A DNA stretch of 64,000 bases from an uncultured bacterium. Lineage in GTDB: Bacteria; Acidobacteriota; Thermoanaerobaculia; Multivoradales; JAHZIX01. The translations under genes and the position numbers were made by a program. Position 1 is the first letter of the stretch. The number at the start of each line of letters is the position of its first letter. This document shows positions 8,395 through 64,000 of this stretch, one piece after another. The DNA lies in assembly GCA_965368975.1 (NCBI GenBank), contig CBDUPA010000021.1, forward strand, positions 32,001-96,000. Direction: 5' to 3'. The notes below the pieces were generated by a model, which ran no database searches, was not told the DNA's origin, and worked only from the letters and a program-made list of their open reading frames with translations.

Positions 8395-8853
8395 ATGACA
8401 TCGCGCAAGCAGAAGACCCTGATCGCCCTGGCCGTCCTGGGCCTCACCCTGCAATTCGTCCCCTACGGCCATGGCCGCGACAACCCGCCGGTGACGCAAG
8501 AGCCCCCTTGGGACTCGCCACGCACGCGTGAGCTGGCTGTGCGCGCCTGTTTCGACTGCCACAGCAATGAGACGCGCTGGCCCTGGTACGGCTACGTCGC
8601 ACCCATCTCGTGGCTGCTCGTCCACGACGTCGAGGACGGCCGGCGTCACCTCAATTTCTCCGAGTGGCAACGCCCACAGCGCCATGCACACGAGGCTGCC
8701 GAGGAGGTCGTCGAGGGCGAGATGCCGCTGTGGCAGTACGAGTTGCTGCACGGCGAAGCACGCTTGACGGAAGCTGAACGGGGAGAGTTGGTGCGCGGTC
8801 TGCAAAGGACCTTGAGCCTCCGTTCCCGACGGAGCGGCGAGTCAACAGACTGA
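8395..8853 (+). CDS. Monoheme cytochrome c (Haem_bd domain)
   Basis: RACFDCHSNETRWPWYGYVAP...LNFSEW...GEMPLWQY matches the Haem_bd family pattern. Confidence 0.85.
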   Translation: MTSRKQKTLIALAVLGLTLQFVPYGHGRDNPPVTQEPPWDSPRTRELAVRACFDCHSNETRWPWYGYVAPISWLLVHDVEDGRRHLNFSEWQRPQRHAHEAAEEVVEGEMPLWQYELLHGEARLTEAERGELVRGLQRTLSLRSRRSGESTD

Positions 8854-20251: not shown

Positions 20252-22390
20252 CTAGAAGCTGTAGGCCAGCCCCAAGCTATAGAAGCTGACTTCGCCAGAC
20301 GTGTCGTAGAGGTACGGCGTGTCGTCCTGGAAGTCGAGATAGCGATACCCGCCGGTGACGGCCAGCTGCGCGGTGGCCTGATAGCGCAAGCGCAGCGCCA
20401 GCTCCAAGCGGGAGAGATCGAGATCGGAGTTGGTGTGGGTCAGGGTGAAGTCGTAACTCTGGTTGGGGTTGAGCAGAGTGCCGGGGACCTCGAAGTCGAA
20501 GGGCGCGAGGGCGGCTTCAGCCTCGGTCCACGCCAGATCCAATCCCAGTTCGAGTTCGTTCGTGGGCTGCCACTCGAGACCGGTGGCGATCACGCTGTCG
20601 TTGGTGTCGTAGTTGAGCAGAGTGCGTGCCGAGCCAGACTGGCCCGAAAGGATCGAGCCTGCTCAGCCATCGAAGATGGGGATGAACGATGGATACTTCA
20701 GCTCGGTATCGTGCCAGGCATAGGAGCCGTACCACTGCCAGGTCTCCGCCGGCGCCCACCAGAGAGTCGCAGTGAAGCTCTGGTGCGTGCGCGACCAGTC
20801 GGTGAAGTCGAGGTCTTCCGAGCCGTCGTTGTCACCGTCCCACCAGGTGTAGGAGGCGCTGAAGTTGCTCTTGCCGGTGGCGTACGTGCCCCCCAGCTTG
20901 ACCTCGTCCCAGCTCTCGGCGGCCGCCGTCGTGTCCGCGACGCGCGCGTCCTGGAACTCGTAGTATTGCGCCGCAGTCGGTGCGAAGGGGCTGGGAGCAG
21001 CACTCGAGACCAGGGTCGAGAAGGCACCGTCGACCGTCGCGAAGGGATGGTCGACCTGGCCGTGGCGATAGCCCGCGGACAGGCGCAGACCTTGGCGCGG
21101 CCTGGCCCACCAGCGCAGCCCCAGGACATTCTCGGTGGTGTCGGTCTCACCGAGCGCGACCTCGTAGTGATCCCGTCGTAGATCCTCGTACTCCCAGAGC
21201 AGCCGCACTCGCCCCGCCTTGCCGGGAAGCTTGGTGGTCAAGTCGAGCTTGGAGTCGAAGATCTCGCGGTCGAGGGCCGACTGTCGCAGGTAGTCTGGAT
21301 CGAAGCCGTAGACGTCACGGAAGGTACGACCAGCATGCGGCCCCGCAATGCCAGGCGGCTCGGCGATGTCGACGAAGATGTCGTCGCTGTCGATCTGCGT
21401 GTAGCGGCCACGCCAGCGCAGTTTCCAGCGCTCGTGGAAGGTGTGCACCGCGTTCACCGCATAGCCATCGTAGTGCGCCGACAACCCCGTGAGTTCGTTC
21501 TCGGTCTGCGACCAGACGCCACTGGCATCCAGGGCCAGGCCGCCGGGACGCGCGAAGCTGAGGGTCAGCTTGGCGATGTCCTTGCTGGTGTCTGGGCGCT
21601 GGTGCACCGGCTGCGGACCCTGAGCCGAGTCCCACTGCAGGCGGTTGTCGAACACCGGGACGCGCAACTCGGGTTGCAGGGCGTCGTCGAACAGAAGGTC
21701 GATATCACGCACACCTTCGCGCAGCTCGCGCCGGACATAGCTGGCGCGCAGCTGGGTGTGTTGCCAGGCATAGGAAACCTCGACACCGACGTCTTCCGTG
21801 CTCTCGTCGAGCGGCCGACTCTGACTGTAGACATGGCAGGAGTCGCAGTGCGAGATGGTGAGCGCCTGGTATTGCCCTTCGCGTTCCTGGCGACGGTAGA
21901 GCAAGGCCAGGGTGAGAGCATCCCAGTCGCGAGGTTGGAACTCGGTGCGATGCCGCAGGTCACTGTAGGTGAGCTCGTAGTCGGCAGCCGGATCCAGGTC
22001 GGTGTGATGGACGTAGCGGCCGTGATTGGTAGCCGCTTCGAGATTGGACAGTGGATCGTGACCCAAACGATGGAAGAGCTTCAGGAACTCGGTGCTCGAG
22101 CGCAGCTGACGCCCCCCCAAGTCGAACGCCAAGCGGTGCATCTGGTCGTCGTCGTCGCGCCAGTCGAGGTCGAGATCGAGAAAGCCCGCCTCCAGTGCGC
22201 TGGTGAAGCGTAGTTGCAGATCGACACCGCCATCGGTTGTCTCGTATTCACTGACCACATCGGGGGAGCCATCGACATCCGCATCCCAGACACCAACTTG
22301 CAGCTCACCTTCCTGGGTCTCCTCGGTGAAGCCCACTGCCGGCAGGACGAGCAGCATGCCCAGCAGCAAAGGGCAGAACAAGCGTTTCAT
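20252..22390 (-). CDS. MtrB/PioB-like outer-membrane beta-barrel with CXXCH, probable selenoprotein (in-frame UGA at 20663-20665, 712 aa)
   Basis: ORFs 20663..22390 and 20252..20593 are in the same frame, separated only by TGA plus 23 sense codons. The read-through product ends SLGLAYSF (beta-signal). It has a signal peptide, HCDSCH, a SECIS-like hairpin and an upstream decaheme gene. Confidence 0.85.
20630..20646 (-). promoter_or_regulatory. Putative bacterial SECIS element
   Basis: Minus-strand CGGGCC-AGUCU-GGCUCG hairpin at +17..+33 after UGA, with GU in the apical loop at +24/+25. Confidence 0.75.
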
Positions 22391-22405
22391 GATCTTCCTC
22401 CTCGC

Positions 22406-23359
22406 TTACCAGGTCAGGCCGCGACCCTGGCCGGGAACCGTCTGCGACGGCAGGTCCGAACCATGGACTCGGGAGTGGCACTGAGTGCAGCTGGTGGTGA
22501 AGGCGATGTTCATGCCGCGAGGGCCAAACGGGTTCTCACGCTCAAAACCGCCGATCTCCACTTCGTCACCTTCGCCGCCGCGATAGCCGGAGTGGAAGTG
22601 TGGCTCGTGGCACTGCAGGCACAGCGCCGGTTCGTTCGCCACCAGCAGGTTGTCCGCCACTGATCCATGCGGATTGTGGCAGCTCGAGCAGTCTTCTTGC
22701 ACCGGTTCGTGCTCGAAGACGAAGGGGCCTTCTTTGTCCTGGTGGCAGTCGTAGCACAGGTCGTTACTGCGCAGCGCGGTCCGTAGCTGTCCCTCGCGTG
22801 CGTTGTGCACGTCATGGCAGCTGGCGCAGTCCATCTTGCCTTCACGCAATGGATGGTGCGACGGCAGCCGGAAGCTGGCGACCACGGCGCCATGGCAATC
22901 CTGGCAACTGTCGAGTGATGCCACTCTCGTCTCGGCGCGGTGGACCGAGTGGCAGTCGGTGCAACCCACATCTTCAAGGGCGTGCGTCGAAGCGTGCCAC
23001 TGGCCCAGCCCTTTGACCTGGTGACACGAGAGGCAGGTCTTGTCGCCCCAGGTCGTATCACCAAAGCCGCCGATGCTCTCGGGCGTCATCTCATCAATGT
23101 GCACCGAGCCCGGGCCATGGCAACCCTCGCAGCCGGTCGCACGGCCTTGCACTTCAAAGGGCTGGATGCGCGCATGAATCTGCGCCAAGCCGAGCTGCAG
23201 GTCTTCGTGACAGGTTAGGCAGGTTTCGTCGCCGACGTACTCGGCGGGTATGCCATCGAGCGAGGCGCTTCCCGCCGGGGAGAGATCGGCAGGATGACGC
23301 GCCGCGACGGTCCCGAGTAGCACCAGCGACACTGAGCAGAAGAGCAGTGTGCCTCTCAC
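22406..23359 (-). CDS. DmsE/MtrA-type periplasmic decaheme cytochrome c
   Basis: Ten CXXCH motifs counted. CEGCHGPGSVH, GPFVFEHEPV and CHSRVHGSD. AGGAGG RBS precedes GTG 23359, followed by a signal peptide. Confidence 0.92.
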   Translation of the reverse strand: MRGTLLFCSVSLVLLGTVAARHPADLSPAGSASLDGIPAEYVGDETCLTCHEDLQLGLAQIHARIQPFEVQGRATGCEGCHGPGSVHIDEMTPESIGGFGDTTWGDKTCLSCHQVKGLGQWHASTHALEDVGCTDCHSVHRAETRVASLDSCQDCHGAVVASFRLPSHHPLREGKMDCASCHDVHNAREGQLRTALRSNDLCYDCHQDKEGPFVFEHEPVQEDCSSCHNPHGSVADNLLVANEPALCLQCHEPHFHSGYRGGEGDEVEIGGFERENPFGPRGMNIAFTTSCTQCHSRVHGSDLPSQTVPGQGRGLTW

Positions 23360-23541
23360 GGCGGGACCTCCTTCCCTTGCTCCGCAAGTGCGAATCGCGC
23401 TCGGGAGCGAATTCATCGTCATCCCGAATTTAGCGCGACAGCGAACTACAGGCATCCACCGAGAGGAGAGTTAGTCCGCCGTCTGATCGGAGTGGTGGAC
23501 TGCCCGAAAGGGTAGCAAGAGGCGCTGCGGACTGTACCTTG

Positions 23542-46891: not shown

Positions 46892-48016
46892 ATGCGCGTA
46901 TCTTCACTCCTCCCCGGCCTCGCCGCCGCCGTCGCCGTTGCCCTCACGGCCCGCTTCGCCCACGGCCTGCTTCCGCTCGGACTCCAGCCCGTGTTGGGGG
47001 AGGTCGTGCTGGCGGTGCTGCTCGGCTTGATCATCGCCAATGTCTGGACGCTGCCAGAGACCCTGCGGCCGGGCGTCAAGTTCAGCTTTCAGACACTGCT
47101 GCGCGTCGCCATCGTGCTGCTCGGCGCCCGCCTCAGCTTGCAGCAAGTTGCTTCCATCGGTGGCAAGGCGTTGATCCTGATCGCCATCCTGATGACGCTG
47201 GCGTTGACCCTCGCCCACCATGTCGGCCGTGCCGCCGGCATCCCGCCACGGCTGGCAGCGCTGATCGGCGTCGGCACCGCGGTGTGCGGCAACTCGGCGA
47301 TCTCGGCGACGGCTCCCGTGATCGGCGCCAACGACGAAGAAGTCAGCTTCGCGGTCGCCACCAACACGCTGTTCGGTACGCTGGCCGTCTTTCTCTACCC
47401 GCTACTCGGCCACCTGCTGCAGCTCAGCGACGCCGCCTTCGGTACCTGGGCGGGTTCTGCAGTCAACGACACCTCGCAGGTCGTCGCGGCCGGCTTCGCC
47501 TTCAGTGACCCTGCCGGCGAGATCGCCACCGCCGTCAAGCTGACCCGCAATGCCCTCATGGGGATCGTCATCGTGCTGATGGGGTTCTTGTATGGTGGCT
47601 CGGATCCGACCGGCAGCTCTGACCGGGACGACGGCAGGGCCAGCGAGACAACACGTCGCGGCAAGGCGTCGAGCTTCCTGCGCCGTCTGCACCAGTCGCT
47701 GCCAGCCTTCGTTCTCGGCTTTCTGGCACTCGCGGTGCTCAATAGCCTCGGCGTGCTGAACGCCGTTTCCGACCTCGCCGGTATCGATCTGCGCACCCTG
47801 TTCACCCAGGCCTCGAAGTTCCTCATCCTCGTCGCGCTCGCCGGGGTCGGTCTCGGTACGCGCCTGGCACAGATGCGACGGATCGGCTTCAAGCCCTTCC
47901 TGCTCGGCCTGGCCGTGGCCACCGTCACCGCCGTCACCAGCTTGATCTTGATCCAGCTGCTGGGCCCCGCAACCCTCTCGACGGCACCAGTCCCGACAGG
48001 AGGCATTGCACCTTGA
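46892..48016 (+). CDS. YeiH/UPF0324 putative sulfate exporter family membrane protein
   Basis: LLRVAIVLLG, GTAVCGNSAISA, AVNDTSQVVAAG and VKLTRN. Confidence 0.9.
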   Translation: MRVSSLLPGLAAAVAVALTARFAHGLLPLGLQPVLGEVVLAVLLGLIIANVWTLPETLRPGVKFSFQTLLRVAIVLLGARLSLQQVASIGGKALILIAILMTLALTLAHHVGRAAGIPPRLAALIGVGTAVCGNSAISATAPVIGANDEEVSFAVATNTLFGTLAVFLYPLLGHLLQLSDAAFGTWAGSAVNDTSQVVAAGFAFSDPAGEIATAVKLTRNALMGIVIVLMGFLYGGSDPTGSSDRDDGRASETTRRGKASSFLRRLHQSLPAFVLGFLALAVLNSLGVLNAVSDLAGIDLRTLFTQASKFLILVALAGVGLGTRLAQMRRIGFKPFLLGLAVATVTAVTSLILIQLLGPATLSTAPVPTGGIAP

Positions 48017-49911
48017 CCGCCATCCTCGGAATCTCTGCCTTCTACCATGATTCCGCCGCCGCCCTGGTGGTGGACGGGGAGATCGTCGCGGCAGCCCAGG
48101 AGGAGCGGTTCACGCGCAAGAAGCACGACTTCGAATTCCCCACCAACGCCATCCGCTACTGCCTGGAAGAAGCCGGCCTGACGCCCGAGCAGCTCGACTA
48201 CGTCGGCTTCTACGACAAGCCCTACCTCAAATTCGATCGCCTGCTCGAGACCTACCTGGCCTACGCACCGGCCGGCTTCCGCTCCTTCCTGCAGGCCATG
48301 CCACTGTGGCTGCACCAGAAGCTGCACCTGCCGCGCGAGATGCGCAAAGGGCTCGATTGGGGAGACGCTGGAGGCAAGTACAGCAAGCGTTTCGTGTTCA
48401 CCGAGCATCACGAGTCGCACGCCGCCTCCGCCTTCTTCGCCTCGCCCTTCGAGAAGGCCGCCATCCTGACCCTCGACGGCGTCGGCGAATGGGCCACGGC
48501 CAGCTTTGGGCAGGGCTCCGGCAACCGCATCGAGCTGACGCACGAGCTGCACTTCCCGCATTCGCTCGGTTTGCTCTACTCCGCCTTCACCTACTACTGC
48601 GGCTTCAAGGTGAACTCGGGCGAGTACAAGCTGATGGGCCTGGCGCCCTACGGTGAGCCCAAGTACAAGGACCTCATCCTCGACCGCCTGCTCGACCTCA
48701 AGGACGACGGTTCCTTCCGCATGGATATGGCGTACTTCAACTACTGCCAGGGCCTGACCATGACGTCGAGCCGCTTCCACGACCTGTTCGGCGGGCCACC
48801 GCGGCAGCCAGAAACGCCGCTCAGCGAGCGCCAGATGGACCTGGCGGCCTCGATCCAGGCGGTGACCGAAGAGATCATGCTACGCGCCGCGCGCCATGTG
48901 CACGCACAGACCGGCCTCGACAAGCTGGTCCTGGCCGGCGGCGTCGCGCTCAACTGCGTCGGCAACGGTCGGTTGCTGCGCGAAGGGCCATTCTCCGAGA
49001 TCTGGGTACAGCCGGCCGCCGGTGACGCTGGTGGCGCGCTGGGCACCGCCCTGTTCATCTGGCACCAGCTGCTCGACAAGCCGCGGCAGCCTCCCGCCGC
49101 CGACCCCGACGGCCGACACCGGCGCGACCTGATGCGCGGCTCGCTGCTCGGCCCCGCCTTTCGGGTCGAGGAGATCCAGGCGTTCCTCGACCAGCAAGGC
49201 GCTAGCTACCAGCTCTACGACAGCGACCAGGCCCTGTGCGACGCCGTCGCCGGCCTGCTGGCCGAGGAGAACGTGGTCGGCTGGTTCCAGGGCCGCATGG
49301 AATTTGGCCCGCGTGCCCTCGGGAGTCGCAGCATCTTGGGCGACGCGCGAAGCCGCCAGATGCAGTCGGTGATGAACCTGAAGATCAAGTTCCGCGAGTC
49401 CTTCCGCCCGTTCGCACCCGTGGTGCTACGCGAGCGCGTCGCGGACTATTTCGATGCCCGGCAGGAAGAGGACAGCCCCTACATGCTGCTGGTCACCACC
49501 GTGCGTGAAGACCGGCGGCTGTCGGTTCCCGACCTGCTGCCGGACGGCTCCCCCGCCAAGGGTCTCGACCTGCTCAAGTTGCCGCGCTCCCAAGTACCGG
49601 CGATCACCCACGTCGACGACTCGGCGCGCCTGCAAACCGCCGACGCCGAGCGTCACGGCCGCTACCATCAACTGTTGCGTGCCTTCGAAGCGCGTACCGG
49701 CTGCCCGGTGCTGATCAACACCAGCTTCAACGTGCGCGGTGAGCCGATCGTGTGCAGCCCGCAGGAGGCCTACCACTGCTTCCTGGCCACCAACATGGAT
49801 GTCCTCGTGCTCGATCGCTGCGTCCTGCTCAGGAACGCCCAGCCGCAAGCCCACCTCGACGGACCGTCCGTCGACCGCGACGCCTACCTGGCGCAGTTCG
49901 AACTGGACTGA
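48013..49911 (+). CDS. O-carbamoyltransferase (NodU/CmcH family)
   Basis: ILGISAFYHDSAA, HHESHAASAF, GEYKLMGLAPYG, KFRESFRPFAP and NTSFNVRGEP. Confidence 0.95.
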   Translation: MTAILGISAFYHDSAAALVVDGEIVAAAQEERFTRKKHDFEFPTNAIRYCLEEAGLTPEQLDYVGFYDKPYLKFDRLLETYLAYAPAGFRSFLQAMPLWLHQKLHLPREMRKGLDWGDAGGKYSKRFVFTEHHESHAASAFFASPFEKAAILTLDGVGEWATASFGQGSGNRIELTHELHFPHSLGLLYSAFTYYCGFKVNSGEYKLMGLAPYGEPKYKDLILDRLLDLKDDGSFRMDMAYFNYCQGLTMTSSRFHDLFGGPPRQPETPLSERQMDLAASIQAVTEEIMLRAARHVHAQTGLDKLVLAGGVALNCVGNGRLLREGPFSEIWVQPAAGDAGGALGTALFIWHQLLDKPRQPPAADPDGRHRRDLMRGSLLGPAFRVEEIQAFLDQQGASYQLYDSDQALCDAVAGLLAEENVVGWFQGRMEFGPRALGSRSILGDARSRQMQSVMNLKIKFRESFRPFAPVVLRERVADYFDARQEEDSPYMLLVTTVREDRRLSVPDLLPDGSPAKGLDLLKLPRSQVPAITHVDDSARLQTADAERHGRYHQLLRAFEARTGCPVLINTSFNVRGEPIVCSPQEAYHCFLATNMDVLVLDRCVLLRNAQPQAHLDGPSVDRDAYLAQFELD

Positions 49912-49955
49912 TGAGTAATTGAGCTGATGCGTAAGCTGGACGAAGGAGCGGCACC

Positions 49956-50378
49956 ATGATTCAAATCAATCGTAATCTCAGCGCGCGTCAGCTGCGCACC
50001 TTCGGCCTGCTGTGGCTGCTGTTCTTCGGCTTCTTCGCCTACCGCCTGTGGCACGCTGGCTGGCAGACCACGGGCTCGGCGCTCGCCGCCGCTGCCCTGC
50101 TGGTACCCTTGATCGGCTGGTGGTGGCTGCCGCTGCTACGGTGGGCCTACATCGGCCTCAGCTACGCCGTCTTCCCGATCGGCTGGCTGGTCTCGCACTT
50201 GCTGCTGGCCATCGTTTACTATGGGGTCTTGACCCCGATCGGCCTCAGCCTGCGCCTGTTCGGCAAAGACCTGCTGCAGCGGCGCCTCGATCCCAAGACG
50301 CAGGGCAGCAGCGGCGCCAGTTACTGGATCGAACGTCCACCACCGCCACGGGCCGAGCGCTACTTCCGACAGTTCTGA
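49956..50378 (+). CDS. SxtJ-family membrane protein
   Basis: QLRTFG...PIGWLVS...VLTPIG...SYWI...YFRQF. Follows the carbamoyltransferase. Confidence 0.85.
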   Translation: MIQINRNLSARQLRTFGLLWLLFFGFFAYRLWHAGWQTTGSALAAAALLVPLIGWWWLPLLRWAYIGLSYAVFPIGWLVSHLLLAIVYYGVLTPIGLSLRLFGKDLLQRRLDPKTQGSSGASYWIERPPPPRAERYFRQF

Positions 50379-50435
50379 CCGCGCCTTTCCCAGCGCACCC
50401 ATCACACAACCGTCGCCGTTCCAGCAAGGAGCCGC

Positions 50436-50720
50436 ATGATGCCTGCACCCGAGAGCCAGGATTCGCCCGCCACCTCCCAGCAGCCCGCTTCTACGCAGAC
50501 GGGTGCTCAGCAGACGGGTGCTCAGCGGACGGGCGTCGAGAGCGAGTTCGAGCGTGCTGCCACGGGCAAGCAAGCCGGCCTGTTGCAAGAGCTGTGGGGC
50601 TTCGTCTGGGAAAGCAAGAAGTGGTGGTTGACGCCGATCCTACTGGTGCTGCTCCTGCTCGCGGCGTTCGTCCTCTTCGGTGGCGGCTCCGCCGCGCCTT
50701 TCATCTACACCCTTTTCTGA
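50436..50720 (+). CDS. DUF5989 family small membrane protein
   Basis: ELWGFVWESKKWWLTPI...AAPFIYTLF. Confidence 0.88.
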   Translation: MMPAPESQDSPATSQQPASTQTGAQQTGAQRTGVESEFERAATGKQAGLLQELWGFVWESKKWWLTPILLVLLLLAAFVLFGGGSAAPFIYTLF

Positions 50721-50735
50721 GTCTCCGGAGTCCGC

Positions 50736-52373
50736 ATGAGCCTTGAAATCAATCAAATCCCGCACCGCGTGCTGCGCAAGTTGCACGCCAACCAGGCCGT
50801 CGTGCTGACTACCGGCCACCTGGGCGACAAGGTTCTGGTCTCCACCAGCCTCGACCCCGGCGACCTCTACGAGACGTCCGAGCTGAGCAGCTTCGCCGAG
50901 TGCCGGCGGCAGGAGAACGTGCACTCGATCACCATGACCATCCTCAAGGTCGACCGCGAGGTGATCCTGGAGTCGACCAGCCACCTGGAGAGCCGCTACC
51001 GCATCATCTCCGAGCTGGACACCCTCCTGCAGTACAACCAGGACGTCTACGTGGTCTACGTGATCACCCACTACAACCCAGCTCAGAAGCCCTTCGGCCC
51101 CCTGACCATCAACATCGGCGGCGACTGCCACCGCACCGGCCGGCACATCCGCGACCTGCAGTCCATCCTGACGCGCACGCGCGACCTGGCCGAGGCGATG
51201 CTCAAGAAGTCCGTGATGATCTTCCCCGACATCCCGGCACTGCACGGCGGCAAGAAGGGCGAGTGGATCATCCTCGACCGTCACGGTGACAAGATCGATG
51301 GCCTGTCCGAAGAAGCCATCATCGCGCTCGGCTCGGCGATCATCCCCAAGGGTATTGGCTTCCTCAACCGCTACAAAGAGATGCAAGCGCGCGACATGGG
51401 GATCTGCGAACGCTTCCCGCGGCAAAACTACATCATGCCCGACAGCGGCTCACCGGACGTCCTCTCCGGCGTCTTCTGGCGCGGCGAGCGCAAAGACAAG
51501 TACATCAATATGTGCGACGCCTGGTACCAGCGCGGCACCAACATGGCACAGTTCACCTGCCTGCCCGCCAACCTCGGCGGCACCATCGACTCGTCGGCCC
51601 GGCCCACCGGCTACGGCGTCAGCACCACCACGGTCGAGCTGGCCAAGCGTTATTTCGAGCCGCGTGGTCGCGACCTGCAGTCGTTGCAGTTTCTGCTCGA
51701 GGCCGCCGGCAACGTCGGGCAGAACACCATCGAGTCCCTGATCCAGCAGTACGGCGTGCCGCCCGAGAACATCACCGTCTTCGACCGCGCCGACCCGGCG
51801 ACCAAGGCGGCGATGGAAAAGTACCGCGTCAACGGCATCACCCTGCGCCACGGCGACTTCTACGAAGTCCGCCTGCCCGAAGAGGTACGTCAAGGTAAGA
51901 GCTACGACGTGTGGGTGAACAACGGCGAGGGCGACAACACCACGCCCAGCTACGTCGACAATCTGCTGGCGGCCGGCGTCAAGGTCTTCGCCGGTGGCGC
52001 CAACAACCTGCTACAGGTACGCACCGAGACCGAGTCCCGCCAGCGCATCTTCGACGCCGGCGGTTGGATCTGGCCCGATCCCGCGACCAGCGGTGGCGGC
52101 TGGACCCTGGCGGTGATCGACATCATGACCCGCTGCCAGAACCGCAAGACCAACACCCCGGAGATCCAGCAGCGCATCCTCGACATCATCACCAGCCGCA
52201 ACCGCCGCCTGGTCGAGGACGTGCTCGACGGCAACTCCGAACTCAGCGGCAGCGACATCTGGAAGCGCGTCGACCGCCTGATCGAGGCACGCGTGCAGAA
52301 GACCCTGTCCCTGGATCTCTCGCCACGCGAGATCTTCGACGGCGCCGATACAACCAAGTGGGCGTTGGTCTGA
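50736..52373 (+). CDS. Divergent Glu/Leu/Phe/Val dehydrogenase-like protein with N-terminal extension
   Basis: LAEAMLKK, HGGKKG, DSSARPTGYGV, AAGNVG, AGGANN and WPDPATSGGG line up with ELFV dehydrogenase motifs. Confidence 0.65.
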   Translation: MSLEINQIPHRVLRKLHANQAVVLTTGHLGDKVLVSTSLDPGDLYETSELSSFAECRRQENVHSITMTILKVDREVILESTSHLESRYRIISELDTLLQYNQDVYVVYVITHYNPAQKPFGPLTINIGGDCHRTGRHIRDLQSILTRTRDLAEAMLKKSVMIFPDIPALHGGKKGEWIILDRHGDKIDGLSEEAIIALGSAIIPKGIGFLNRYKEMQARDMGICERFPRQNYIMPDSGSPDVLSGVFWRGERKDKYINMCDAWYQRGTNMAQFTCLPANLGGTIDSSARPTGYGVSTTTVELAKRYFEPRGRDLQSLQFLLEAAGNVGQNTIESLIQQYGVPPENITVFDRADPATKAAMEKYRVNGITLRHGDFYEVRLPEEVRQGKSYDVWVNNGEGDNTTPSYVDNLLAAGVKVFAGGANNLLQVRTETESRQRIFDAGGWIWPDPATSGGGWTLAVIDIMTRCQNRKTNTPEIQQRILDIITSRNRRLVEDVLDGNSELSGSDIWKRVDRLIEARVQKTLSLDLSPREIFDGADTTKWALV

Positions 52374-52675: not shown

Positions 52676-54007
52676 TCACTTCTGCTGCACACGGCTGAGC
52701 GCGCCAGAGAGCTCTTCGATCAGGGTTGCGGACACCTGCTCCATGTGGGCCGCCTTCTGGAACACGATGAGCGCGGCCATGGCCTCGCGGTGCAATTCCA
52801 GTGACTGGAAGATGGGCAGGGTCTCTTCGGCCAGCTGACGCATGGCGGTGACGCGGCCCTGGCGAGCGTAGATGCTGGCCAGGTCGAGCGACACCCAGGC
52901 GGCGTCGTAGCCGATTTCGTGGTCGATGAACGCACGCCGGACATCCACCAGGGCGGATTCGGCATCGTCGATCTGACCAGCGGCGATGGAAATGCGACCT
53001 TCCAGCCAGCGCAGGCGGACCAGGTCCAGCTCGTTGGCGAACTGACGGTGCAGGTCGCGGGTCTCTTCGAGCAGGTTCAGCGCTTCCTGCTGCTGCCCCT
53101 TCTCGCTCAGGTAGAAGCACAGGTTGTGGGTCGCCACCAGCATCAGGCGCGGTTCCTGCTCGGGCTCGATCCAGGCCAGGCCCCTGCGCAGCAGACGAAC
53201 CGCCTCCTCGGTGTGGTCCTGCTTGCCGGCCAGCAGGCCCTGTCCGATCAGCACGCGACCTTCCAGGTGGCGATCCTCCAGCTTGCGGTACAGAAGGGCA
53301 GCACGCTGCAGGCAATGGGTCGCGTCCTTGAGCCGGTGGTTGTCGCGGAACAGCGACGCCTTCAGCTCGAAGATACGGCCCTTCTCCAGTGGATCACCGC
53401 TCCCCTTCTGGATCAGCGATTCGGCCAGGTCGAACGCCTTCTCGGCACCGTGCAGGTCCGAGCGGATACGGCGGGCATTGCCCAGCATTGCCCAGGCGCG
53501 CGCCTTGATGTCGTACGCCAGGGGTGCCGAGCAGGTCTCGACATCCAGCTCATAGGCCATGCTCACCGCCACCTCGGCCAGCTGTAGCGCTCGGTGCGGA
53601 TCCTGCACGCACGCGTGCCAGGAGCGCTCCAGAATCAGCTCGCACAGCGACCAGCTGCGGAAGCGGGAGTCGTTGCACACCATCAGGCGCTGCTGCTCCA
53701 GCGGCCGCCGGGTCAGCTCTTCGAACAGGTGCTCGGCGGTTTCCGTGTCGGCGCTCAGCTGGCTTTCCCAATCGAAAGCACGGCTGGTCATGCGCATCCA
53801 GGACGCCGTGTACAGGTGCTCGAAATCTTCGTCCAGACCTGCCATGTCAGTCAGATCAGACGTCATTTCGGTGCCTTCGGTCGCTTCGTACCAGGCAGTG
53901 TCGTCGTCACGCCTCAGCGCGGCACGCACCATCGAGCAAGCCTCTTCCGGCGTTAGATCGAAATCCAGTTTCCAGAGTTGCGACCGATCCAAACTGCTCG
54001 AAGTCAT
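52676..54007 (-). CDS. Tetratricopeptide-repeat-like protein
   Basis: GGGAGG RBS and helical repeats (ARAWAMLGNARRI, RLRWLEGRI, YDAAWVSLDLA). Paralogous to 62481..63725. Confidence 0.8.
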   Translation of the reverse strand: MTSSSLDRSQLWKLDFDLTPEEACSMVRAALRRDDDTAWYEATEGTEMTSDLTDMAGLDEDFEHLYTASWMRMTSRAFDWESQLSADTETAEHLFEELTRRPLEQQRLMVCNDSRFRSWSLCELILERSWHACVQDPHRALQLAEVAVSMAYELDVETCSAPLAYDIKARAWAMLGNARRIRSDLHGAEKAFDLAESLIQKGSGDPLEKGRIFELKASLFRDNHRLKDATHCLQRAALLYRKLEDRHLEGRVLIGQGLLAGKQDHTEEAVRLLRRGLAWIEPEQEPRLMLVATHNLCFYLSEKGQQQEALNLLEETRDLHRQFANELDLVRLRWLEGRISIAAGQIDDAESALVDVRRAFIDHEIGYDAAWVSLDLASIYARQGRVTAMRQLAEETLPIFQSLELHREAMAALIVFQKAAHMEQVSATLIEELSGALSRVQQK

Positions 54008-54333
54008 CACCAGACCTCCCCCCGTGTTTATCGGACATCTCATACGGGGCTTCGATCGAGATGAACCGGGCTGGTTTTCCGAAATGGAAAACCTTCAACC
54101 TAATATCACATGCTTATCAAAGAAGTCTCACGACTCTGGGCCGCTGACTGTCCTCTTTCTTGGGGCTCTTGTCGCCCTTCGCCATGATCAGCTCGCTCTA
54201 GGCTCTGAGATTCAGGTGAGCTGAGATCAGCCGCACTAGATCGAGCTGTGGCAATTATCCATTTGGGTCAAGTGTCGGGCCGGCGTCGAGACAACCTTCG
54301 ATCACCGCGTGACGCTGAGCACAAACACTGACT

Positions 54334-56698: not shown

Positions 56699-59209
<2,511 letters not shown>

Positions 59210-59338
59210 GACGAAGTCAGTGTAGCAGGCGTCCATTCGAAGCTGAGCGACGAAGAAGATAGCATCGGCACGATCGCACCTCGGACAGCCGAGCCAATCC
59301 CCTCACCCTCAGAACCCAGACACCAACGGAGGTCCCCC

Positions 59339-60103
59339 GTGCACCGATTCTTCGCCTCACACCTCGCCAGCATCCTGCTCGCGACCGCCCTGCTGCCCAC
59401 CGCGGCAACCGCCGTCGAGCCCGGCTCCGATCCCAAGGCCATCGCCCTCGCCGAGGCCACCGTCGAAGCCATGGGCGGACAAGCCGCCTGGGACGCCACG
59501 CGTCACATCTGCTTCACCTTCGTCCACCGCCGCCACCACTGCTGGGACAAGTACACCGGCGACCACCGTATGAGCCTGGAAGACGACGGCAAGTCTGTCG
59601 TCGTACTGCACAACATCGACAGCCGCGAAGGTGAGGTCTACATCGACGGCCAGGCACAGAGCGGGGACACCCAGCAAGAGTGGCTGGACAACGCCTACGG
59701 CGCCTGGATCAACGACACCTACTGGCTGGTGATGCCCTACAAGCTGCTCGACCCCGGTGTCACGCTCACCTATGACCGCGCCGAGGAACTCGGCGGCACC
59801 CTCTACGATGTCCTCGAGCTCCAGTTCCAGAACGTCGGCCTGACGCCGGGCGACACTTACTGGGCCTTCCTGGACCGCGAGACCGGCCTGATGGGTCGCT
59901 GGGAGTACCATCTGCAGAGCTACGGCGCCGACGATCCACCGACCGGCTGGAACTGGACCGGTTGGGCTCCCCATGGCAACATCCTGCTCGCCCCCGGCCG
60001 CAAGAACGACGCCGGCCGTGAACTCCCCCTGACCGACATCGCGGTGTATGACGAGCTGCCGGAAGCGGTGTATGCGTCGGTGGCGGGGGCGGACTTGCCC
60101 TGA
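59339..60103 (+). CDS. Exported hypothetical protein
   Basis: GGAGG RBS, signal peptide, AMGGQAAWD...WINDTYWLVMPYKL...VGLTPGD pattern. Confidence 0.75.
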   Translation: MHRFFASHLASILLATALLPTAATAVEPGSDPKAIALAEATVEAMGGQAAWDATRHICFTFVHRRHHCWDKYTGDHRMSLEDDGKSVVVLHNIDSREGEVYIDGQAQSGDTQQEWLDNAYGAWINDTYWLVMPYKLLDPGVTLTYDRAEELGGTLYDVLELQFQNVGLTPGDTYWAFLDRETGLMGRWEYHLQSYGADDPPTGWNWTGWAPHGNILLAPGRKNDAGRELPLTDIAVYDELPEAVYASVAGADLP

Positions 60104-61051
60104 TCACCCCCGGTGGCGCAGCAACCAGTGCAGCACCTGCGCCTCCGCCGACCCTGGCGCCGCGCCCAGCCCCAGGTCGAGGTGGCGCGGAAAGCCGAGA
60201 TGGCCACCGCGGTCCGTCCAGCACACCTCCAGGTGTCTGCTGCCGCGCTCCAGGTACGGCTTCACCGTCTCTGCCAGCACCATCGGGTCCGCCTCGGACC
60301 CCACATACAGCGTCGGCACCCGCAACCGTTCCAGGTGCGGTGCCACGCTGACCTGGCGGTAATAGTCCTCAGCTCCTTCGAAGCCATGGCGTGGTGCCAC
60401 GATGAGGTCGTCCCAGTCCCACAGCGACCTCACCTGCTCCGCCTGCTCCATCGGCACCGGCACCGGCCCCCTCGCCGCCACCTCACGGTAGATGTTGCGC
60501 AGCCCGATCAGCAAGAAGCGCTGGTAGGCCGCCATGTACCACTGCTTGTAGGTCTCTGCCGAGAGCTCCAGGTCGACCGGCGACGCCAGGGTCGCCACCG
60601 CCCGCACCCGCGGATCGTGGGACTCGACGGCCCAGCGCAGTACCACGTGGCCACCCAAGGAGTAGCCGAAGAAGTAGATGTCCTCGTACACCGCCAGCTG
60701 CGGGCAAGCCAGGGGGGCATCGAGATCGGCGATCAGCCCGGCGTGGTAGAAGTCCTCCCCCAGCCGGTCGGCCCCGCGCAGGTTGAGCAGCAAGCACGCT
60801 AGGCCCGCCTCGCGCGCCGCCCATACCGCCCGGGCCAGATAAGGGCTGCGCACCGACCCGCCGAGCCCGTGGATTACCACGAACAGCCCGGTCGCATCCT
60901 GCACCTCGAACAACCTCCCCGTCAGCCGCACCATCCCTTGCCGCGCGTCCGGCACGACCGTCGACCACTCCGTCCACGGCGGCAGCGGCGGCGGCCACAG
61001 GCGGCCGTGGAGGCGAGGCAAGATGGTCCAGAGGTGTCCGCTGACTGCCAT
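60104..61051 (-). CDS. YheT/ABHD-family alpha/beta hydrolase
   Basis: HGLGGS, GYSLGG nucleophile, DPMV and GGHLGF. Confidence 0.9.
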   Translation of the reverse strand: MAVSGHLWTILPRLHGRLWPPPLPPWTEWSTVVPDARQGMVRLTGRLFEVQDATGLFVVIHGLGGSVRSPYLARAVWAAREAGLACLLLNLRGADRLGEDFYHAGLIADLDAPLACPQLAVYEDIYFFGYSLGGHVVLRWAVESHDPRVRAVATLASPVDLELSAETYKQWYMAAYQRFLLIGLRNIYREVAARGPVPVPMEQAEQVRSLWDWDDLIVAPRHGFEGAEDYYRQVSVAPHLERLRVPTLYVGSEADPMVLAETVKPYLERGSRHLEVCWTDRGGHLGFPRHLDLGLGAAPGSAEAQVLHWLLRHRG

Positions 61052-61128
61052 TGAAGGGTCCGTCTCGAGTCGTAGGGCGGGAAGACTTGTGCGGCGGGAA
61101 GAATAGCAGGGCAAGGCGCACACGGAAA

Positions 61129-61158
61129 CAGGCCGCCACACCGAAGCGCGGCGGCCTG
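61129..61158 (-). terminator. Hairpin downstream of peptide gene A
   Basis: CAGGCCGCC/GGCGGCCTG stem followed by TTT on the minus strand. Confidence 0.65.
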
Positions 61159-61191
61159 CATCCTTTCAGAGGGAAGCGAGGAAGGAAGATC

Positions 61192-61395
61192 TCACCAGGT
61201 CGGCGTGAAGGTGGTCGGGCAGCCGACCGACTCGTTGTGCACGCAGTCCGGGGAAATGGTGGTCACAACGCACTTGTAGCCTTCGGTGAAGTCGATTGGA
61301 ATGGCACCACCGACCTGGTGCATTGTATCCTCCTCAAGAGCCAGCAGGGTGTCCTTGCGAAGCCGCAACCTTCGAATACTGATCCGCTTCTTCAT
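61192..61395 (-). CDS. RiPP precursor-like peptide A (double-glycine, lanthipeptide-type leader)
   Basis: GGAG RBS, leader MKKRISIRRLRLRKDTLLAL...QVGG, and a 37-aa Cys/Thr/Ser-rich core. Confidence 0.75.
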   Translation of the reverse strand: MKKRISIRRLRLRKDTLLALEEDTMHQVGGAIPIDFTEGYKCVVTTISPDCVHNESVGCPTTFTPTW

Positions 61396-61580
61396 GATGT
61401 ACTCCAGTTCTCATGGGTATCAGGAACCATCGTCCCGAGAATCTTGCCAAACTCGGCCTTGTCTTAAGTAAGAACTCTAACAGACATATCATAGTAATTC
61501 CCGAACTCTCCATCAGAATTCAGTAAGAAGGCTAGCGCAGTTCATCCGGACAGCAAATCGCCAGCTTGCATGAACACGAA

Positions 61581-61626
61581 GCAAGCTACAGGCCGCCACA
61601 CCGAAGCGCGGCGGCCTGTAGCTTGC
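61581..61626 (-). terminator. 17-bp perfect-stem hairpin downstream of peptide gene B
   Basis: GCAAGCTACAGGCCGCC/GGCGGCCTGTAGCTTGC. Confidence 0.7.
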
Positions 61627-61657
61627 ATCCTCTCAAGGGAAGCGAGGAAGGAGGATT

Positions 61658-61882
61658 TCACCAGGTCGGCGTAAAGGTGGTCGGGCAGCCGACCGACTCG
61701 TTGTGCACGCAGTCCGGGGAAATGGTGGTCGCGATGCACACGGCGTCCTCGGTCCACTGGTCACAGATCGGATGGCCGCTGGTGCCGCCGTTGACACCCG
61801 CCATGCCGTTCTCGGTGATGGCCAGCAGGGTGTCCTTGCGCAGCTGTAGCTTCCGGGCGATGTTCCGCTTCTTCATGGTCAT
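61658..61882 (-). CDS. RiPP precursor-like peptide B (double-glycine, lanthipeptide-type leader)
   Basis: GGAG RBS, leader MKKRNIARKLQLRKDTLLAI...GVNGG, and a 41-aa core with 4 Cys. The start is either 61882 or 61876. Confidence 0.75.
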   Translation of the reverse strand: MTMKKRNIARKLQLRKDTLLAITENGMAGVNGGTSGHPICDQWTEDAVCIATTISPDCVHNESVGCPTTFTPTW

Positions 61883-62310
61883 GTTCTCCAAGTAGCGATG
61901 GGAGTCGAGCTCCCGAATAGGGGGTTACCCTTGGGTGGGTAGTACGACTGACTGGTACGGTTGGCGCAGTGGAAGGTTCTTTGGGATCAGATTTCTTTAC
62001 ATCGGGTAGAGCTGCGCGACAGGTCGTACCGATTCTCCTCGTCCTCGCACATCCTAGGTGGAGCGGGGACCGCATCGCGCATGATGCCGAATGAGGGCGC
62101 CCCGCGGAAAGGAACCGTCGCATGAACAGGTACCTGTCGAACCGAGTGGCCCGTTGGGGGGCCGGTCCGTGGCTGGATCCAGATGGAGGCCGCCCAGGCA
62201 GTGGAGATCTCGGGCCGGGCCTTGGTTGGCTCCAATGGAGAATCACTGCGAAACGTCTAGACGTAGACTGAATGCGTGAACTCCGCCATCAATTAAGCGA
62301 GCCTCACCTC

Positions 62311-62350
62311 TAGTCCTGCAAAGACACGAGTAGTCCTGCAGAGACACTAG
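62311..62350. repeat. 20-bp tandem direct repeat, candidate operator
   Basis: TAGTCCTGCAAAGACACGAG TAGTCCTGCAGAGACACTAG in the divergent intergenic region. Confidence 0.6.
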
Positions 62351-62480
62351 GATCATCTCTCGCAGTAGTCGGTAGCGAGGCACAAGCCTCGCTACTGAAT
62401 TTTTTAGCGTGGATGTCACGATTTCTCGTCTGCTCGCACTTTAGAGGCAACCTAGACGAAAATCCAATCTTGGAGATACC

Positions 62481-63725
62481 ATGTACCATCTTCCTCGCGA
62501 GTTGTTCGAGGCTCATTTGGCAGGCGATATTTCCCCCAGAGAGCTTTCAAGATTCCTGGCTGAACACCTGATAACCCTCTGCCCCTTGTGCGAAGCGGAG
62601 TTACGAGCGGTCCAGCGGAGTCTGGACAATCAAGATCATGGGCAACGAGGGGAGCCGAAGCCAAGTCCCGAGGATTGGCACCAAGCGCGCAAGTGGATGG
62701 AGGAGTTACAGCGGGATCCGATCTCGATCTGGGCGGGCAAGGTTGCCAGAGCGAGGAAGCGTTTTCGCGGCCCTGCATTCGCCGAACTCATGCTAGAGCA
62801 GGCCAGGTTATATCCTGAGAATGCCCTGGAAACTACAACCTGCGCACAGATGGCCCTCCCCCGGCAAGGATTTGCCAGTACACGCATTGATGCTATGGCC
62901 TGCGCACTGCAGATGAACGCCTATCGCGTGCAGGGCAGCTACGACCGGGCACAACAGTACCTGGATCTACTGCCAGCCCTCCTGAATGGAGTCACGAACC
63001 CGGCCTGCCAGGCCGAGGCCGCAAGCCTGATTGGCTCTCTCCTCATCGACCTACGTCATTTCAGCAAGGCGAAGCAGCATCTGAGCTACGCTGCAATTCT
63101 CTCCAAGCACATCCTGCGAGACAGTGAACTCAGCGCCAGGACGGCAATCAAGATATCTGGCATCCACTACTACCAGCGCCAGTGGGACCAGGCTCTGAAC
63201 GCTCTTCTGCCGGCTTTCCAAGATGTGCAGGAAGAAGAAACACCCCGCATTTACTTCATCTTGCGCTACAACCTGGCGATGCTCTTCTGCGCAATGAACC
63301 ATCCAGACGCTGCGCTGGAGCTTCTCCCCGAGGTACAAGCAGGCTTGCGGCAGCATGGCACCACCATCGACCAGAGGTCACTGCAGTGGCTGGAAGGTCG
63401 GATTCACGGGGGTCTGAGCGATCATCATCGCGCTTACCGACTGCTGACAGATCTCCGGGATCAATACCTGCAAGAAGGGCAACATTTCTGTGCGGCGATC
63501 GTCGCCTGCGACATTTGCTGCCTGCATCTGGATCGAAATGAACTGGACGCCGCCGTGGAGATCTTGCAACCAGCCCTGTCGACCATGTGCCGCCACTCGC
63601 TGCACGAGGAAAGCGAACAGGTTGTGCGCGGCTTGCAGAACGCCCTGCTTCGAGGTGTATTGACGCTCACGACACTGAAGGCTGCCCTGCCCCACCTGGA
63701 ACAGGCAGCTCGCGTCGTTCGCTAG
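62481..63725 (+). CDS. TPR-like protein with N-terminal zinc-finger-like (HxxxxCxxC) motif
   Basis: GGAG RBS, HLITLCPLC and helical repeats (QWLEGRI, FCAAIVACD). GC is visibly lower than in flanking genes. Confidence 0.75.
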   Translation: MYHLPRELFEAHLAGDISPRELSRFLAEHLITLCPLCEAELRAVQRSLDNQDHGQRGEPKPSPEDWHQARKWMEELQRDPISIWAGKVARARKRFRGPAFAELMLEQARLYPENALETTTCAQMALPRQGFASTRIDAMACALQMNAYRVQGSYDRAQQYLDLLPALLNGVTNPACQAEAASLIGSLLIDLRHFSKAKQHLSYAAILSKHILRDSELSARTAIKISGIHYYQRQWDQALNALLPAFQDVQEEETPRIYFILRYNLAMLFCAMNHPDAALELLPEVQAGLRQHGTTIDQRSLQWLEGRIHGGLSDHHRAYRLLTDLRDQYLQEGQHFCAAIVACDICCLHLDRNELDAAVEILQPALSTMCRHSLHEESEQVVRGLQNALLRGVLTLTTLKAALPHLEQAARVVR

Positions 63726-64000
63726 TCTTGGCCCAGATCCGCGACGCATCTAGCATTCCGTATCACGGTGACGGAGTCAGGTCCCCGATGGCTTGGTGCA
63801 ACCTTGTTGGACGGAATCACAGATCCTTGATCGGGTAGGAACCCGGCATGGTTCGGAGACGAAGGGTGATTCTGGAGCCGGGGCTGGGGGTGGGGGATGG
63901 GGCTGGGGGGTGGCGATTGGGTGGTTTGTTGTTGGGGCGGATGGGATAGGCGCCGCGGGCGTGTCGACTTGGGATGCGAGGGTTGTGCTACCTCGGCGCG

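What the first reader, a model, noticed from the sequence alone, without database searches (positions are those of the whole stretch)
61129..61882. Tandem orphan RiPP precursors with identical C-terminal core and variable N-terminal core
Seen: two small genes, each with RBS and terminator hairpin, and leaders with R/K-L-x-L-RKDTLLA and a GG site. The cores are AIPIDFTEGYKCVV- and TSGHPICDQWTEDAVCIA-, each followed by the identical 23-mer TTISPDCVHNESVGCPTTFTPTW. The DNA is near-identical over about 61129-61264 and 61589-61730, while the leaders have diverged. Known: KLxLxKxT-type leaders with GG and Cys/Ser/Thr cores characterise class I lanthipeptide precursors of Gram-negative bacteria. No LanB/C/M, radical SAM or C39 transporter gene is in the window. 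Inference: a new peptide family matured in trans, with a constant module (possibly kept by gene conversion) and a variable module.
Basis: partly seen in the sequence, partly recalled or inferred. Interest (0 to 1): 0.75.

Follow-up and report, generated by a model that had tools for sequence, protein, structure and literature searches.

The report
Stray lanthipeptide precursor pair, partly homogenised
These two small genes encode precursors of ring-containing peptides from a known class, but they sit away from their usual modifying enzymes, and their tail ends are identical because of recent recombination between the two copies, not because the tail is a conserved module.

Summary
In detail: two minus-strand genes (72 and 67 aa) share their last 23 residues. 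Both pass the curated cut-off of NCBIfam NF038153, the class I lanthipeptide leader. They belong to a family of 27 precursors; the named ones are acidobacterial. In both genome loci recovered, the precursor lies directly upstream of lanB, lanC and a C39 peptidase exporter. So these are class I lanA genes. No lanB, lanC or C39 gene, or remnant, lies in the window, and the rest of the genome was not visible.

The 'constant and variable module' idea is not supported. Gene A's 'variable' core start is the family consensus, and the shared 23-mer is the least conserved part family-wide. The identity is a recent DNA-level event: synonymous divergence is 0.54 in the 5' part and 0.06 in the 3' part, and the shared tract runs on through the 3' untranslated region and hairpin. 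An outside homologue is closer to A in the leader, yet A and B are closer in the tail. Gene B has cleanly lost predicted ring 1.

Most likely they are stand-alone precursors modified by a LanB/LanC encoded elsewhere; a relic pair is the main rival.

The parts
61658..61876 (-). lanA gene A, 72 aa: 31-aa leader ending in Gly-Gly and a 41-aa acidic core with 4 Cys and 11 Ser/Thr; predicted rings S2-C7, T11-C16, T20-C25, S30-C33 (inferred from spacing)
   Evidence: (NF038153 25.8 bits, cut-off 22, scored with one extra N-terminal residue)
61192..61395 (-). lanA gene B, 67 aa: 30-aa leader ending in Gly-Gly and a 37-aa core with 3 Cys; ring-1 Ser and Cys both absent; predicted rings T7-C12, T16-C21, S26-C29; mosaic of a diverged 5' part and an A-like 3' part
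   Evidence: (23.5 bits)
61817..61849 (-). leader motif of A: LxLxKx5L with Ile in place of the last Leu
61336..61368 (-). leader motif of B: exact LxLxKx5L
61784..61789 (-). Gly-Gly cleavage site of A (C39 peptidase type)
   Evidence: motif described in 10.1101/2020.03.13.990614
61306..61311 (-). Gly-Gly cleavage site of B
61886..61889 (-). GGAG ribosome-binding site of A, 9 nt before the ATG at 61876
61402..61405 (-). GGAG ribosome-binding site of B, 6 nt before its ATG
61588..61730 (-). homogenised tract, copy in A: last 23 codons, stop, 3' UTR and hairpin core
61128..61264 (-). homogenised tract, copy in B; its 5' boundary lies between predicted rings 2 and 3
61581..61626 (-). 3' hairpin after gene A, terminator-like or mRNA-stabilising
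   Evidence: z -7.5
61124..61163 (-). 3' hairpin after gene B
   Evidence: z -4.0
62481..63725 (+). divergent neighbour: 414-aa TPR-like protein, weakly NsdA-like; a homologue also lies divergently upstream of lanA in locus L002; link to the peptides unproven
60104..61051 (-). downstream neighbour, where relatives have lanB: an alpha/beta hydrolase (PRK10985-like, below cut-off); probably unrelated

Best explanation
The two genes are class I lanthipeptide precursors (lanA) of an acidobacterial family with Gly-Gly leaders, lying outside their usual operon. SHOWN: leader family, family membership, the lanA-lanB-lanC-exporter layout of relatives, absence of those genes from this window, and the mosaic 3' end. 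INFERRED, in order: (1) A LanB/LanC pair elsewhere in the genome binds the LxLxK leader. (2) LanB dehydrates Ser/Thr, and LanC links each Cys to the residue five (last ring three) positions before it. This gives four thioether rings in a row in A and three in B. (3) A C39 peptidase ABC exporter with a HlyD-type adaptor cuts after Gly-Gly and secretes two short, acidic, non-cationic peptides. History: a shortened lanA was duplicated long ago; the copies diverged with their leaders under purifying selection; B lost ring 1. A recent conversion or crossover then made rings 3-4, the tail, the UTR and the hairpin identical. The biological activity is not predictable from these data; the acidic cores argue against a nisin-like membrane antibiotic (inference).
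For: NF038153 above cut-off for both genes. 27 relatives, 3 named class I lanthipeptide. 2 of 2 genome loci have LanB (PF04738 + PF14028), LanC (PF05147) and a C39 ABC exporter (PF03412) directly downstream; both LanCs keep the GxAHG, WCYG and CHG motifs (their role as catalytic and zinc ligands is recalled). Ser/Thr is enriched at -5 (0.48 vs 0.25 +/- 0.03) and -3 (0.41 vs 0.25 +/- 0.03) of core Cys (relatives are not independent). It is present at -5 in 22 of 23 and 23 of 23 outside members for the ring-2 and ring-3 Cys. Gene B keeps Thr-x4-Cys although 6 of those 9 residues differ from A. Leader pN 0.29 vs pS 0.60; 5' pS 0.54 vs 3' pS 0.06. Synonymous differences in 6 of 19 same-residue codons outside the tract vs 1 of 22 inside, Fisher p = 0.036. 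Outside homologue P0002: leader 28/31 to A (A-B 18), but tail 20/23 (A-B 23/23). Precursors scattered away from their synthetase are known for class II prochlorosins (PMC10783134, PMC8524650).
Against: No cognate LanB/LanC was seen for this genome. None of the 120 best of 1,679 LanC hits has the 114,351-base longest contig that the two peptides have. The cores are much shorter than most relatives (17 of 24 are 53 aa or more), and A has lost the last Leu of the motif that 23 of 24 keep; both could be signs of decay. No expression or mass-spectrometry data exist. The conversion statistics rest on 62 codons and one outside homologue whose DNA was not seen. Only 2 genome loci were recovered.
Confidence: 0.58

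Rival explanations
1. Relic: the lanB-lanC-exporter genes were lost, or the precursor cassette arrived without them, and the two genes are now unmodified leftovers drifting and recombining.
For: The position downstream of lanA, held by lanB in 2 of 2 relatives, holds an unrelated hydrolase. The region has lower G+C (0.51-0.58 vs 0.65), like an islet. The cores are truncated, gene B is on a long branch, and no LanC hit matches this contig's length.
Against: Both ORFs, RBSs and hairpins are intact; leader pN is below pS; Thr/Cys pairs are kept or lost together. No lanB or lanC fragments remain. A second organism has a gene-A-like copy with the same short tail, 83% identical, so the short form has persisted.
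Confidence: 0.2
2. Not orphan at all: the lanB/lanC/exporter genes lie just beyond the window edge in a rearranged cluster, on the far side of the TPR gene.
For: Only 2.1 kb upstream of gene A is visible, and the contig is 114,351 bases, of which 64,000 are in the window.
Against: Relatives put lanB downstream in the same direction. Only 120 of 1,679 hits were listed.
Confidence: 0.1
3. One reading: a constant C-terminal module kept by selection, combined with an exchangeable N-terminal module.
For: The tract boundary falls between predicted rings 2 and 3. P0002 also keeps the last 15 residues unchanged, and differs from A at 3 of 23 tail positions vs 6 of 18 in the core start.
Against: The tail is the least conserved region of the family (0.36; last 8 residues 0.22) and A's core start is the family consensus. 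Identity extends to synonymous sites and non-coding DNA, which protein-level selection does not explain. The tandem pair in L001 shows no such tract (longest perfect run 20 nt).
Confidence: 0.07
4. The peptides are exported signals sensed by the divergently encoded TPR protein, in the manner of RRNPP peptide-receptor pairs (resemblance recalled). This can coexist with lanthionine modification.
For: A homologous TPR gene lies divergently upstream in the window and in L002 (27% identity over 195 aa, pairwise E 2e-9). The cores are acidic rather than cationic.
Against: L001 has no such gene upstream. Another member of this TPR family lies 9 kb away with no peptide beside it. No DNA-binding domain was found in the protein. 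Binding was not tested.
Confidence: 0.05

Closest known systems
Gly-Gly/LxLxKx5L class I lanthipeptide precursors (NCBIfam NF038153 lant_leader_L1a; described from Bacteroidetes in 10.1101/2020.03.13.990614, passages read)
   Same: Leader motif, Gly-Gly end, Ser/Thr/Cys core; relatives sit with LanB, LanC and a C39 exporter.
   Different: A different core family from Acidobacteriota (that paper's main text has 0 occurrences of 'Acidobacteria'); here no synthetase is beside the precursors.
Viridisins (Vds), thalassomonasins, Ped15 and pinensins: class I lanthipeptides of Gram-negative bacteria (PMC9680876, passages read)
   Same: Several tandem double-glycine precursors served by one LanB/LanC; short non-overlapping rings were assigned by MS in VdsA1.
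   Different: Those precursors lie in the operon. I did not compare core sequences, which are given only in figures.
Prochlorosins/synechococsins (ProcA/SyncA with ProcM/SyncM; PMC10783134 and PMC8524650, passages read)
   Same: Precursor genes found isolated or in tandem away from the synthetase; Gly-Gly leader; indels in cores.
   Different: Class II (LanM), Nif11-type leader, hypervariable cores and tens of precursors; here class I, a conserved ring pattern and two genes.
tha/the and aci clusters of Thermoanaerobaculia and other Acidobacteriota (PMC13083261; section 9 and passages of supplement 1 read)
   Same: Lanthipeptides from the same phylum as the named relatives.
   Different: Class II with mersacidin/lichenicidin-like precursors and a thiazole-forming GMC oxidase, or class III; not this leader or core family.

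Membership tests
Class I lanthipeptide precursor, Gly-Gly/LxLxKx5L type (NF038153) | Leader scores above the curated HMM cut-off | tested here: met
   25.8 and 23.5 bits, cut-off 22
Class I lanthipeptide precursor, Gly-Gly/LxLxKx5L type (NF038153) | LxLxKx5L motif and Gly-Gly at the leader end | tested here: met
   Exact in B; Ile for the last Leu in A; Gly-Gly in both
Class I lanthipeptide precursor, Gly-Gly/LxLxKx5L type (NF038153) | Core with Ser/Thr placed before Cys | tested here: met
   All 7 core Cys have Ser/Thr at -5 or -3; family-wide enrichment
Class I lanthipeptide precursor, Gly-Gly/LxLxKx5L type (NF038153) | Homologous precursors encoded with LanB, LanC and a C39 exporter | tested here: met
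   2 of 2 genome loci
Class I lanthipeptide precursor, Gly-Gly/LxLxKx5L type (NF038153) | Actually dehydrated and cyclised by LanB/LanC | not testable with these tools
   Needs co-expression and mass spectrometry
Class I lanthipeptide gene cluster (the locus as a whole) | lanB and lanC next to lanA | tested here: not met
   None in the window by Pfam or tblastn; only 2.1 kb upstream visible. The locus is not filed as a cluster.
Class I lanthipeptide gene cluster (the locus as a whole) | lanB/lanC somewhere in the host genome | tested here: inconclusive
   No LanC among the best 120 of 1,679 has this contig's length; the host genome was not returned by the genome scan
Prochlorosin-type system | Nif11-type leader and a LanM synthetase | tested here: not met
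   No Nif11 Pfam match; relatives use LanB + LanC
Prochlorosin-type system | Many precursors scattered over the genome | tested here: inconclusive
   Only 2 leader-motif ORFs in the 64-kb window; rest of genome not seen
ThaA/TheA thiazole lanthipeptides | Mersacidin/lichenicidin-like precursor with LanM and a GMC oxidoreductase | tested here: not met
   No such family match for the peptides; no LanM or GMC oxidase among the ORFs scanned in the window or in the two loci
Radical-SAM thioether peptides (ranthi-/sactipeptides) | Radical SAM maturase beside the precursor | tested here: not met
   None among the ORFs scanned in the window or in L001/L002 (20 ORFs scanned in the two loci)
RRNPP-like peptide-TPR signalling pair | Adjacent TPR receptor that binds the peptide | not tested
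   Adjacency in 2 of 3 loci; binding not examined

The most novel reading that the evidence does not exclude
In these Acidobacteriota one class I LanB/LanC serves satellite precursor genes elsewhere in the genome. Because the cores are strings of independent thioether rings, recombination and deletion at ring boundaries add, drop and swap whole rings: loss of ring 1 in B, exchange of rings 3-4, and removal of the C-terminal Cys repeats between two Gly-Cys motifs. That would be a prochlorosin-like diversity generator in class I, working by ring shuffling.
Probability: 0.2. Interest if true: 0.62.

Novelty: new member of a known kind. Interest (0 to 1): 0.33.

Why it matters
Modestly. It points to an uncharacterised acidobacterial class I lanthipeptide family whose full-length members have 9 to 15 Cys in cores of 53 to 76 residues and two complete clusters ready for heterologous expression. 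The window's short 3- and 4-ring versions are convenient minimal substrates. If a remote LanB/LanC modifies them, cluster-based genome mining misses such products, and natural recombination at ring boundaries would show which ring modules can be exchanged. The identical tail itself is an ordinary result of recombination between tandem copies.

Tried and rejected
Three hits (P0004, P0008, P0010) are long repetitive proteins with no leader and were dropped as chance. P0030 was left out of alignment A3, and P0011 and P0030 out of the tree. The tree has few columns; only the split of A, B and P0002 from the rest (97/99) is used. tblastn of gene A's protein against plasmids and phages found nothing. 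Rfam gave no match in 59000-64000. No sigma-70 promoter consensus was found in 59500-64000. The hairpins after lanA in L001 and L002 do not align convincingly with the window's; two fold better than shuffles (z -2.7, -3.7) and one does not (z -0.2), so a shared ancestral hairpin is not claimed. The tblastx output was noise apart from the precursors. The third-position counts printed were off by one codon and are not used. The Atlas look-up with homologue P0015 gave a first hit at 0.90 to a cluster in which 63% carry PF28317 Lant_leader_dom; this agrees but is weak. An assembly artefact was rejected: the copies differ inside the tract (1 coding, 2 UTR changes, an indel), and a misjoin would not make them more alike. 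Thiazole formation at the core's Gly-Cys was considered after reading PMC13083261 and rejected (different precursor family, no such oxidase found). No structure or complex was predicted, since a linear model of a ring-modified peptide would not decide anything. Left unchecked: the rest of the contig and genome, the host's identity (inferred only from relatives), the gene neighbourhoods and taxa of the unnamed homologues including P0002, and metagenome and viral contig collections.

Full report
OBSERVATION. Two short ORFs lie in tandem on the minus strand: gene A at 61658-61876 (72 aa) and gene B at 61192-61395 (67 aa). They are the only ORFs in the window with the leader motif. Each has a GGAG 6 to 9 nt before the start and a strong 3' hairpin (z -7.5 and -4.0). 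The last 23 residues are identical and the DNA there matches at 68 of 69 positions. The perfect run of 57 nt was reached by 2 of 20,000 codon shuffles. The likeness continues for 20 of 22 nt after the stop and, after a short diverged stretch, over a 31-nt hairpin core.

WHAT THE GENES ARE. Both peptides pass the curated cut-off of NCBIfam NF038153, class I lanthipeptide leader (25.8 and 23.5 bits against 22). A single-sequence search found one outside homologue among 3 candidates, P0002, 83% identical to A. The representative library gave 11 hits: gene B, 7 further precursors, and 3 repetitive proteins that I dropped. A profile of 10 sequences then gave 27 proteins among 1,012 candidates: the two window peptides, P0002 and 24 others. 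Three carry the name 'class I lanthipeptide' from Holophagales or Acidobacteriota genomes. The host is therefore probably an acidobacterium; that is inference from relatives, not a test.

WHAT RELATIVES LOOK LIKE. The genome scan returned 2 loci from 45 pattern matches, an Acidobacteriota and a Thermoanaerobaculia genome. In both, the precursor (two in tandem in L001, one in L002) is followed directly by LanB (PF04738 + PF14028), LanC (PF05147), a HlyD-type fusion protein, a C39 peptidase ABC exporter and a second adaptor. This is the arrangement described for LxLxKx5L, Gly-Gly class I precursors (10.1101/2020.03.13.990614, passages) and shown by experiment for viridisins (PMC9680876, passages). 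Comparing tables by eye, 5 of the 9 outside precursors on contigs over 5 kb share a contig length with a listed LanC; the other 4 do not, and all 4 have short cores. That last point is only a lead, since two of those contigs are barely long enough to hold a cluster.

THE WINDOW LACKS THE MACHINERY. Pfam found no RiPP maturase in 51 window ORFs (chosen from the 93 frames of 200 aa or more, plus the two peptides). tblastn with the related LanB, LanC, adaptor and exporter proteins hit only an ABC ATPase at about 46 kb. Where relatives have lanB, the window has an alpha/beta hydrolase. Only 2.1 kb upstream is visible, and the contig is 114,351 bases. The rest of the genome was not seen.

CORE ANATOMY. 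Every core Cys in A and B has Ser or Thr five positions before it, or three for the last Cys. Across 27 cores, Ser/Thr is at -5 for 48% and at -3 for 41% of Cys, against 25% in shuffles (the sequences are related, so this is not a formal probability). Among outside members, 22 of 23 and 23 of 23 keep it for the ring-2 and ring-3 Cys. The simplest reading is rings in a row: four in A, three in B. This is a prediction; ring topology cannot be read safely from sequence (PMC9680876). B lacks both partners of ring 1 and keeps Thr-x4-Cys of ring 2 while 6 of those 9 residues changed. Most relatives are longer (17 of 24 cores are 53 aa or more), with further Cys repeats. In 6 of 24, those repeats lie between Val-Gly-Cys and a later Gly-Cys-Pro/Glu-Thr, so the window's short tail may come from a deletion between the two Gly-Cys motifs (inference). 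The cores are acidic: 5 Asp/Glu and no Lys/Arg in A, 4 and 1 in B.

THE 'CONSTANT MODULE'. Against 23 outside members, mean column identity to A is 0.51 in the leader, 0.49 in the core start and 0.36 in the shared 23-mer, falling to 0.22 in the last 8 residues. A's core start is the family consensus (9 of 24 match it closely), so B is the derived gene. A, B and P0002 form one lineage (97/99; B on a long branch; few columns). P0002 matches A at 28 of 31 leader residues while B matches 18. In the tail B matches A at 23 of 23 and P0002 matches 20, and A and B share tail residues found in none of 23 relatives. Synonymous divergence between A and B is 0.54 in the 5' part and 0.06 in the tail (Fisher p = 0.036 on codon counts). 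So the 5' parts split long ago and the 3' parts recently. Gene conversion or an unequal crossover explains this, and it covered non-coding DNA too. Direction and date are unknown, and the DNA of P0002 was not seen. The tandem pair in L001 has no such tract (longest run 20 nt). One boundary is too little to call a rule.

FUNCTIONAL OR RELIC. Intact frames, ribosome-binding sites and hairpins, leader pN 0.29 against pS 0.60, and paired keeping or loss of Thr and Cys suggest selection after duplication. Against this stand the truncated cores, the Leu-to-Ile change in A's motif, the lower G+C of the region (0.51-0.58 against 0.65) and the unseen synthetase. I put maturation by a remote LanB/LanC at 0.58, a relic at 0.2 and a cluster just past the edge at 0.1.

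THE TPR NEIGHBOUR. A 414-aa TPR-like gene is transcribed divergently from A. A homologue lies in the same position in L002, with one small ORF between, but not in L001. Another copy lies at 52676-54043 with no peptide beside it. A regulatory link is possible and untested.

KNOWN VERSUS NEW. The leader type, class and export route are known. Precursors away from their synthetase, alone or in tandem, are known for class II prochlorosins (PMC10783134 and PMC8524650, passages). Characterised acidobacterial lanthipeptides I found are class II or III with other precursors (PMC13083261; section 9, passages, and passages of supplement 1; supplements 2-4 not read). Ten literature searches (listings and abstract starts only, except the papers named) showed no paper on this core family, on stand-alone class I precursors, or on gene conversion between lanA genes. 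The library lacks most subscription papers, and the precursor tables in the supplement of the 2020 preprint could not be seen. A 2026 review places gene conversion with modular PKS/NRPS genes and does not mention it for RiPP precursors in the passages read (PMC13500794). Passages of PMC12328550 added nothing on this point.

VERDICT. A new member of a known kind: two stand-alone class I lanthipeptide precursors of an uncharacterised acidobacterial core family, with a recently homogenised 3' end. Interest 0.33. The boldest reading, satellite precursors diversified by ring-boundary recombination, has probability about 0.2.

Noticed in passing
L001 10001-20288; L002 9054-19320: Two apparently complete, uncharacterised class I lanthipeptide clusters whose precursors have 9-10 Cys; other family members have up to 15 Cys in a 76-aa core. 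These would be unusually highly cyclised lanthipeptides if all Cys form rings.
   Followed up: partly
L001 15465-17441; L002 14167-16137: A 656-658 aa HlyD-type adaptor with a long N-terminal extension (GAF domain detected in the L001 copy) sits between lanC and the C39 exporter in both clusters, and a second adaptor follows.
   Followed up: no
window 62481-63725 and 52676-54043; L002 6478-7824: Three members of one TPR-like family, weakly NsdA-like and below all cut-offs. The 62481 copy has an N-terminal His/Cys cluster that recalls an anti-sigma zinc finger (recalled, no HMM hit).
   Followed up: partly
window 62311-62350 and 62369-62398: A 20-nt tandem direct repeat (18 of 20 identical) and a hairpin with a T run lie upstream of the TPR gene; possible operator and terminator.
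   Followed up: no
window 61000-63725: G+C is 0.51-0.58 against 0.65 for the first 52 kb; the TPR gene's third-position G+C is 0.66 against 0.82-0.89 for neighbours. It looks like a small acquired islet.
   Followed up: partly
window 20663-23455: A multiheme cytochrome (paired CXXCH, MtrC/MtrF-like match) followed by a porin-like gene, resembling a porin-cytochrome electron conduit.
   Followed up: no
window 48013-52373: A carbamoyltransferase, an unknown ORF and a divergent Glu/Leu/Phe/Val dehydrogenase-like gene in a row; possibly a small tailoring operon.
   Followed up: no
window 59240-60103: A roughly 290-aa ORF with an apparent signal peptide and no Pfam or NCBIfam match, convergent with the hydrolase.
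   Followed up: no
window 8853-11738: A 961-aa superfamily 1 helicase with a C-terminal REase_MTES_1575-like match, possibly defence-related.
   Followed up: no
L001 4567-9719: Two large divergent ORFs upstream of the lanthipeptide cluster (1275 aa with a weak beta-propeller lectin match; 755 aa with no match) next to glycosyltransferases.
   Followed up: no
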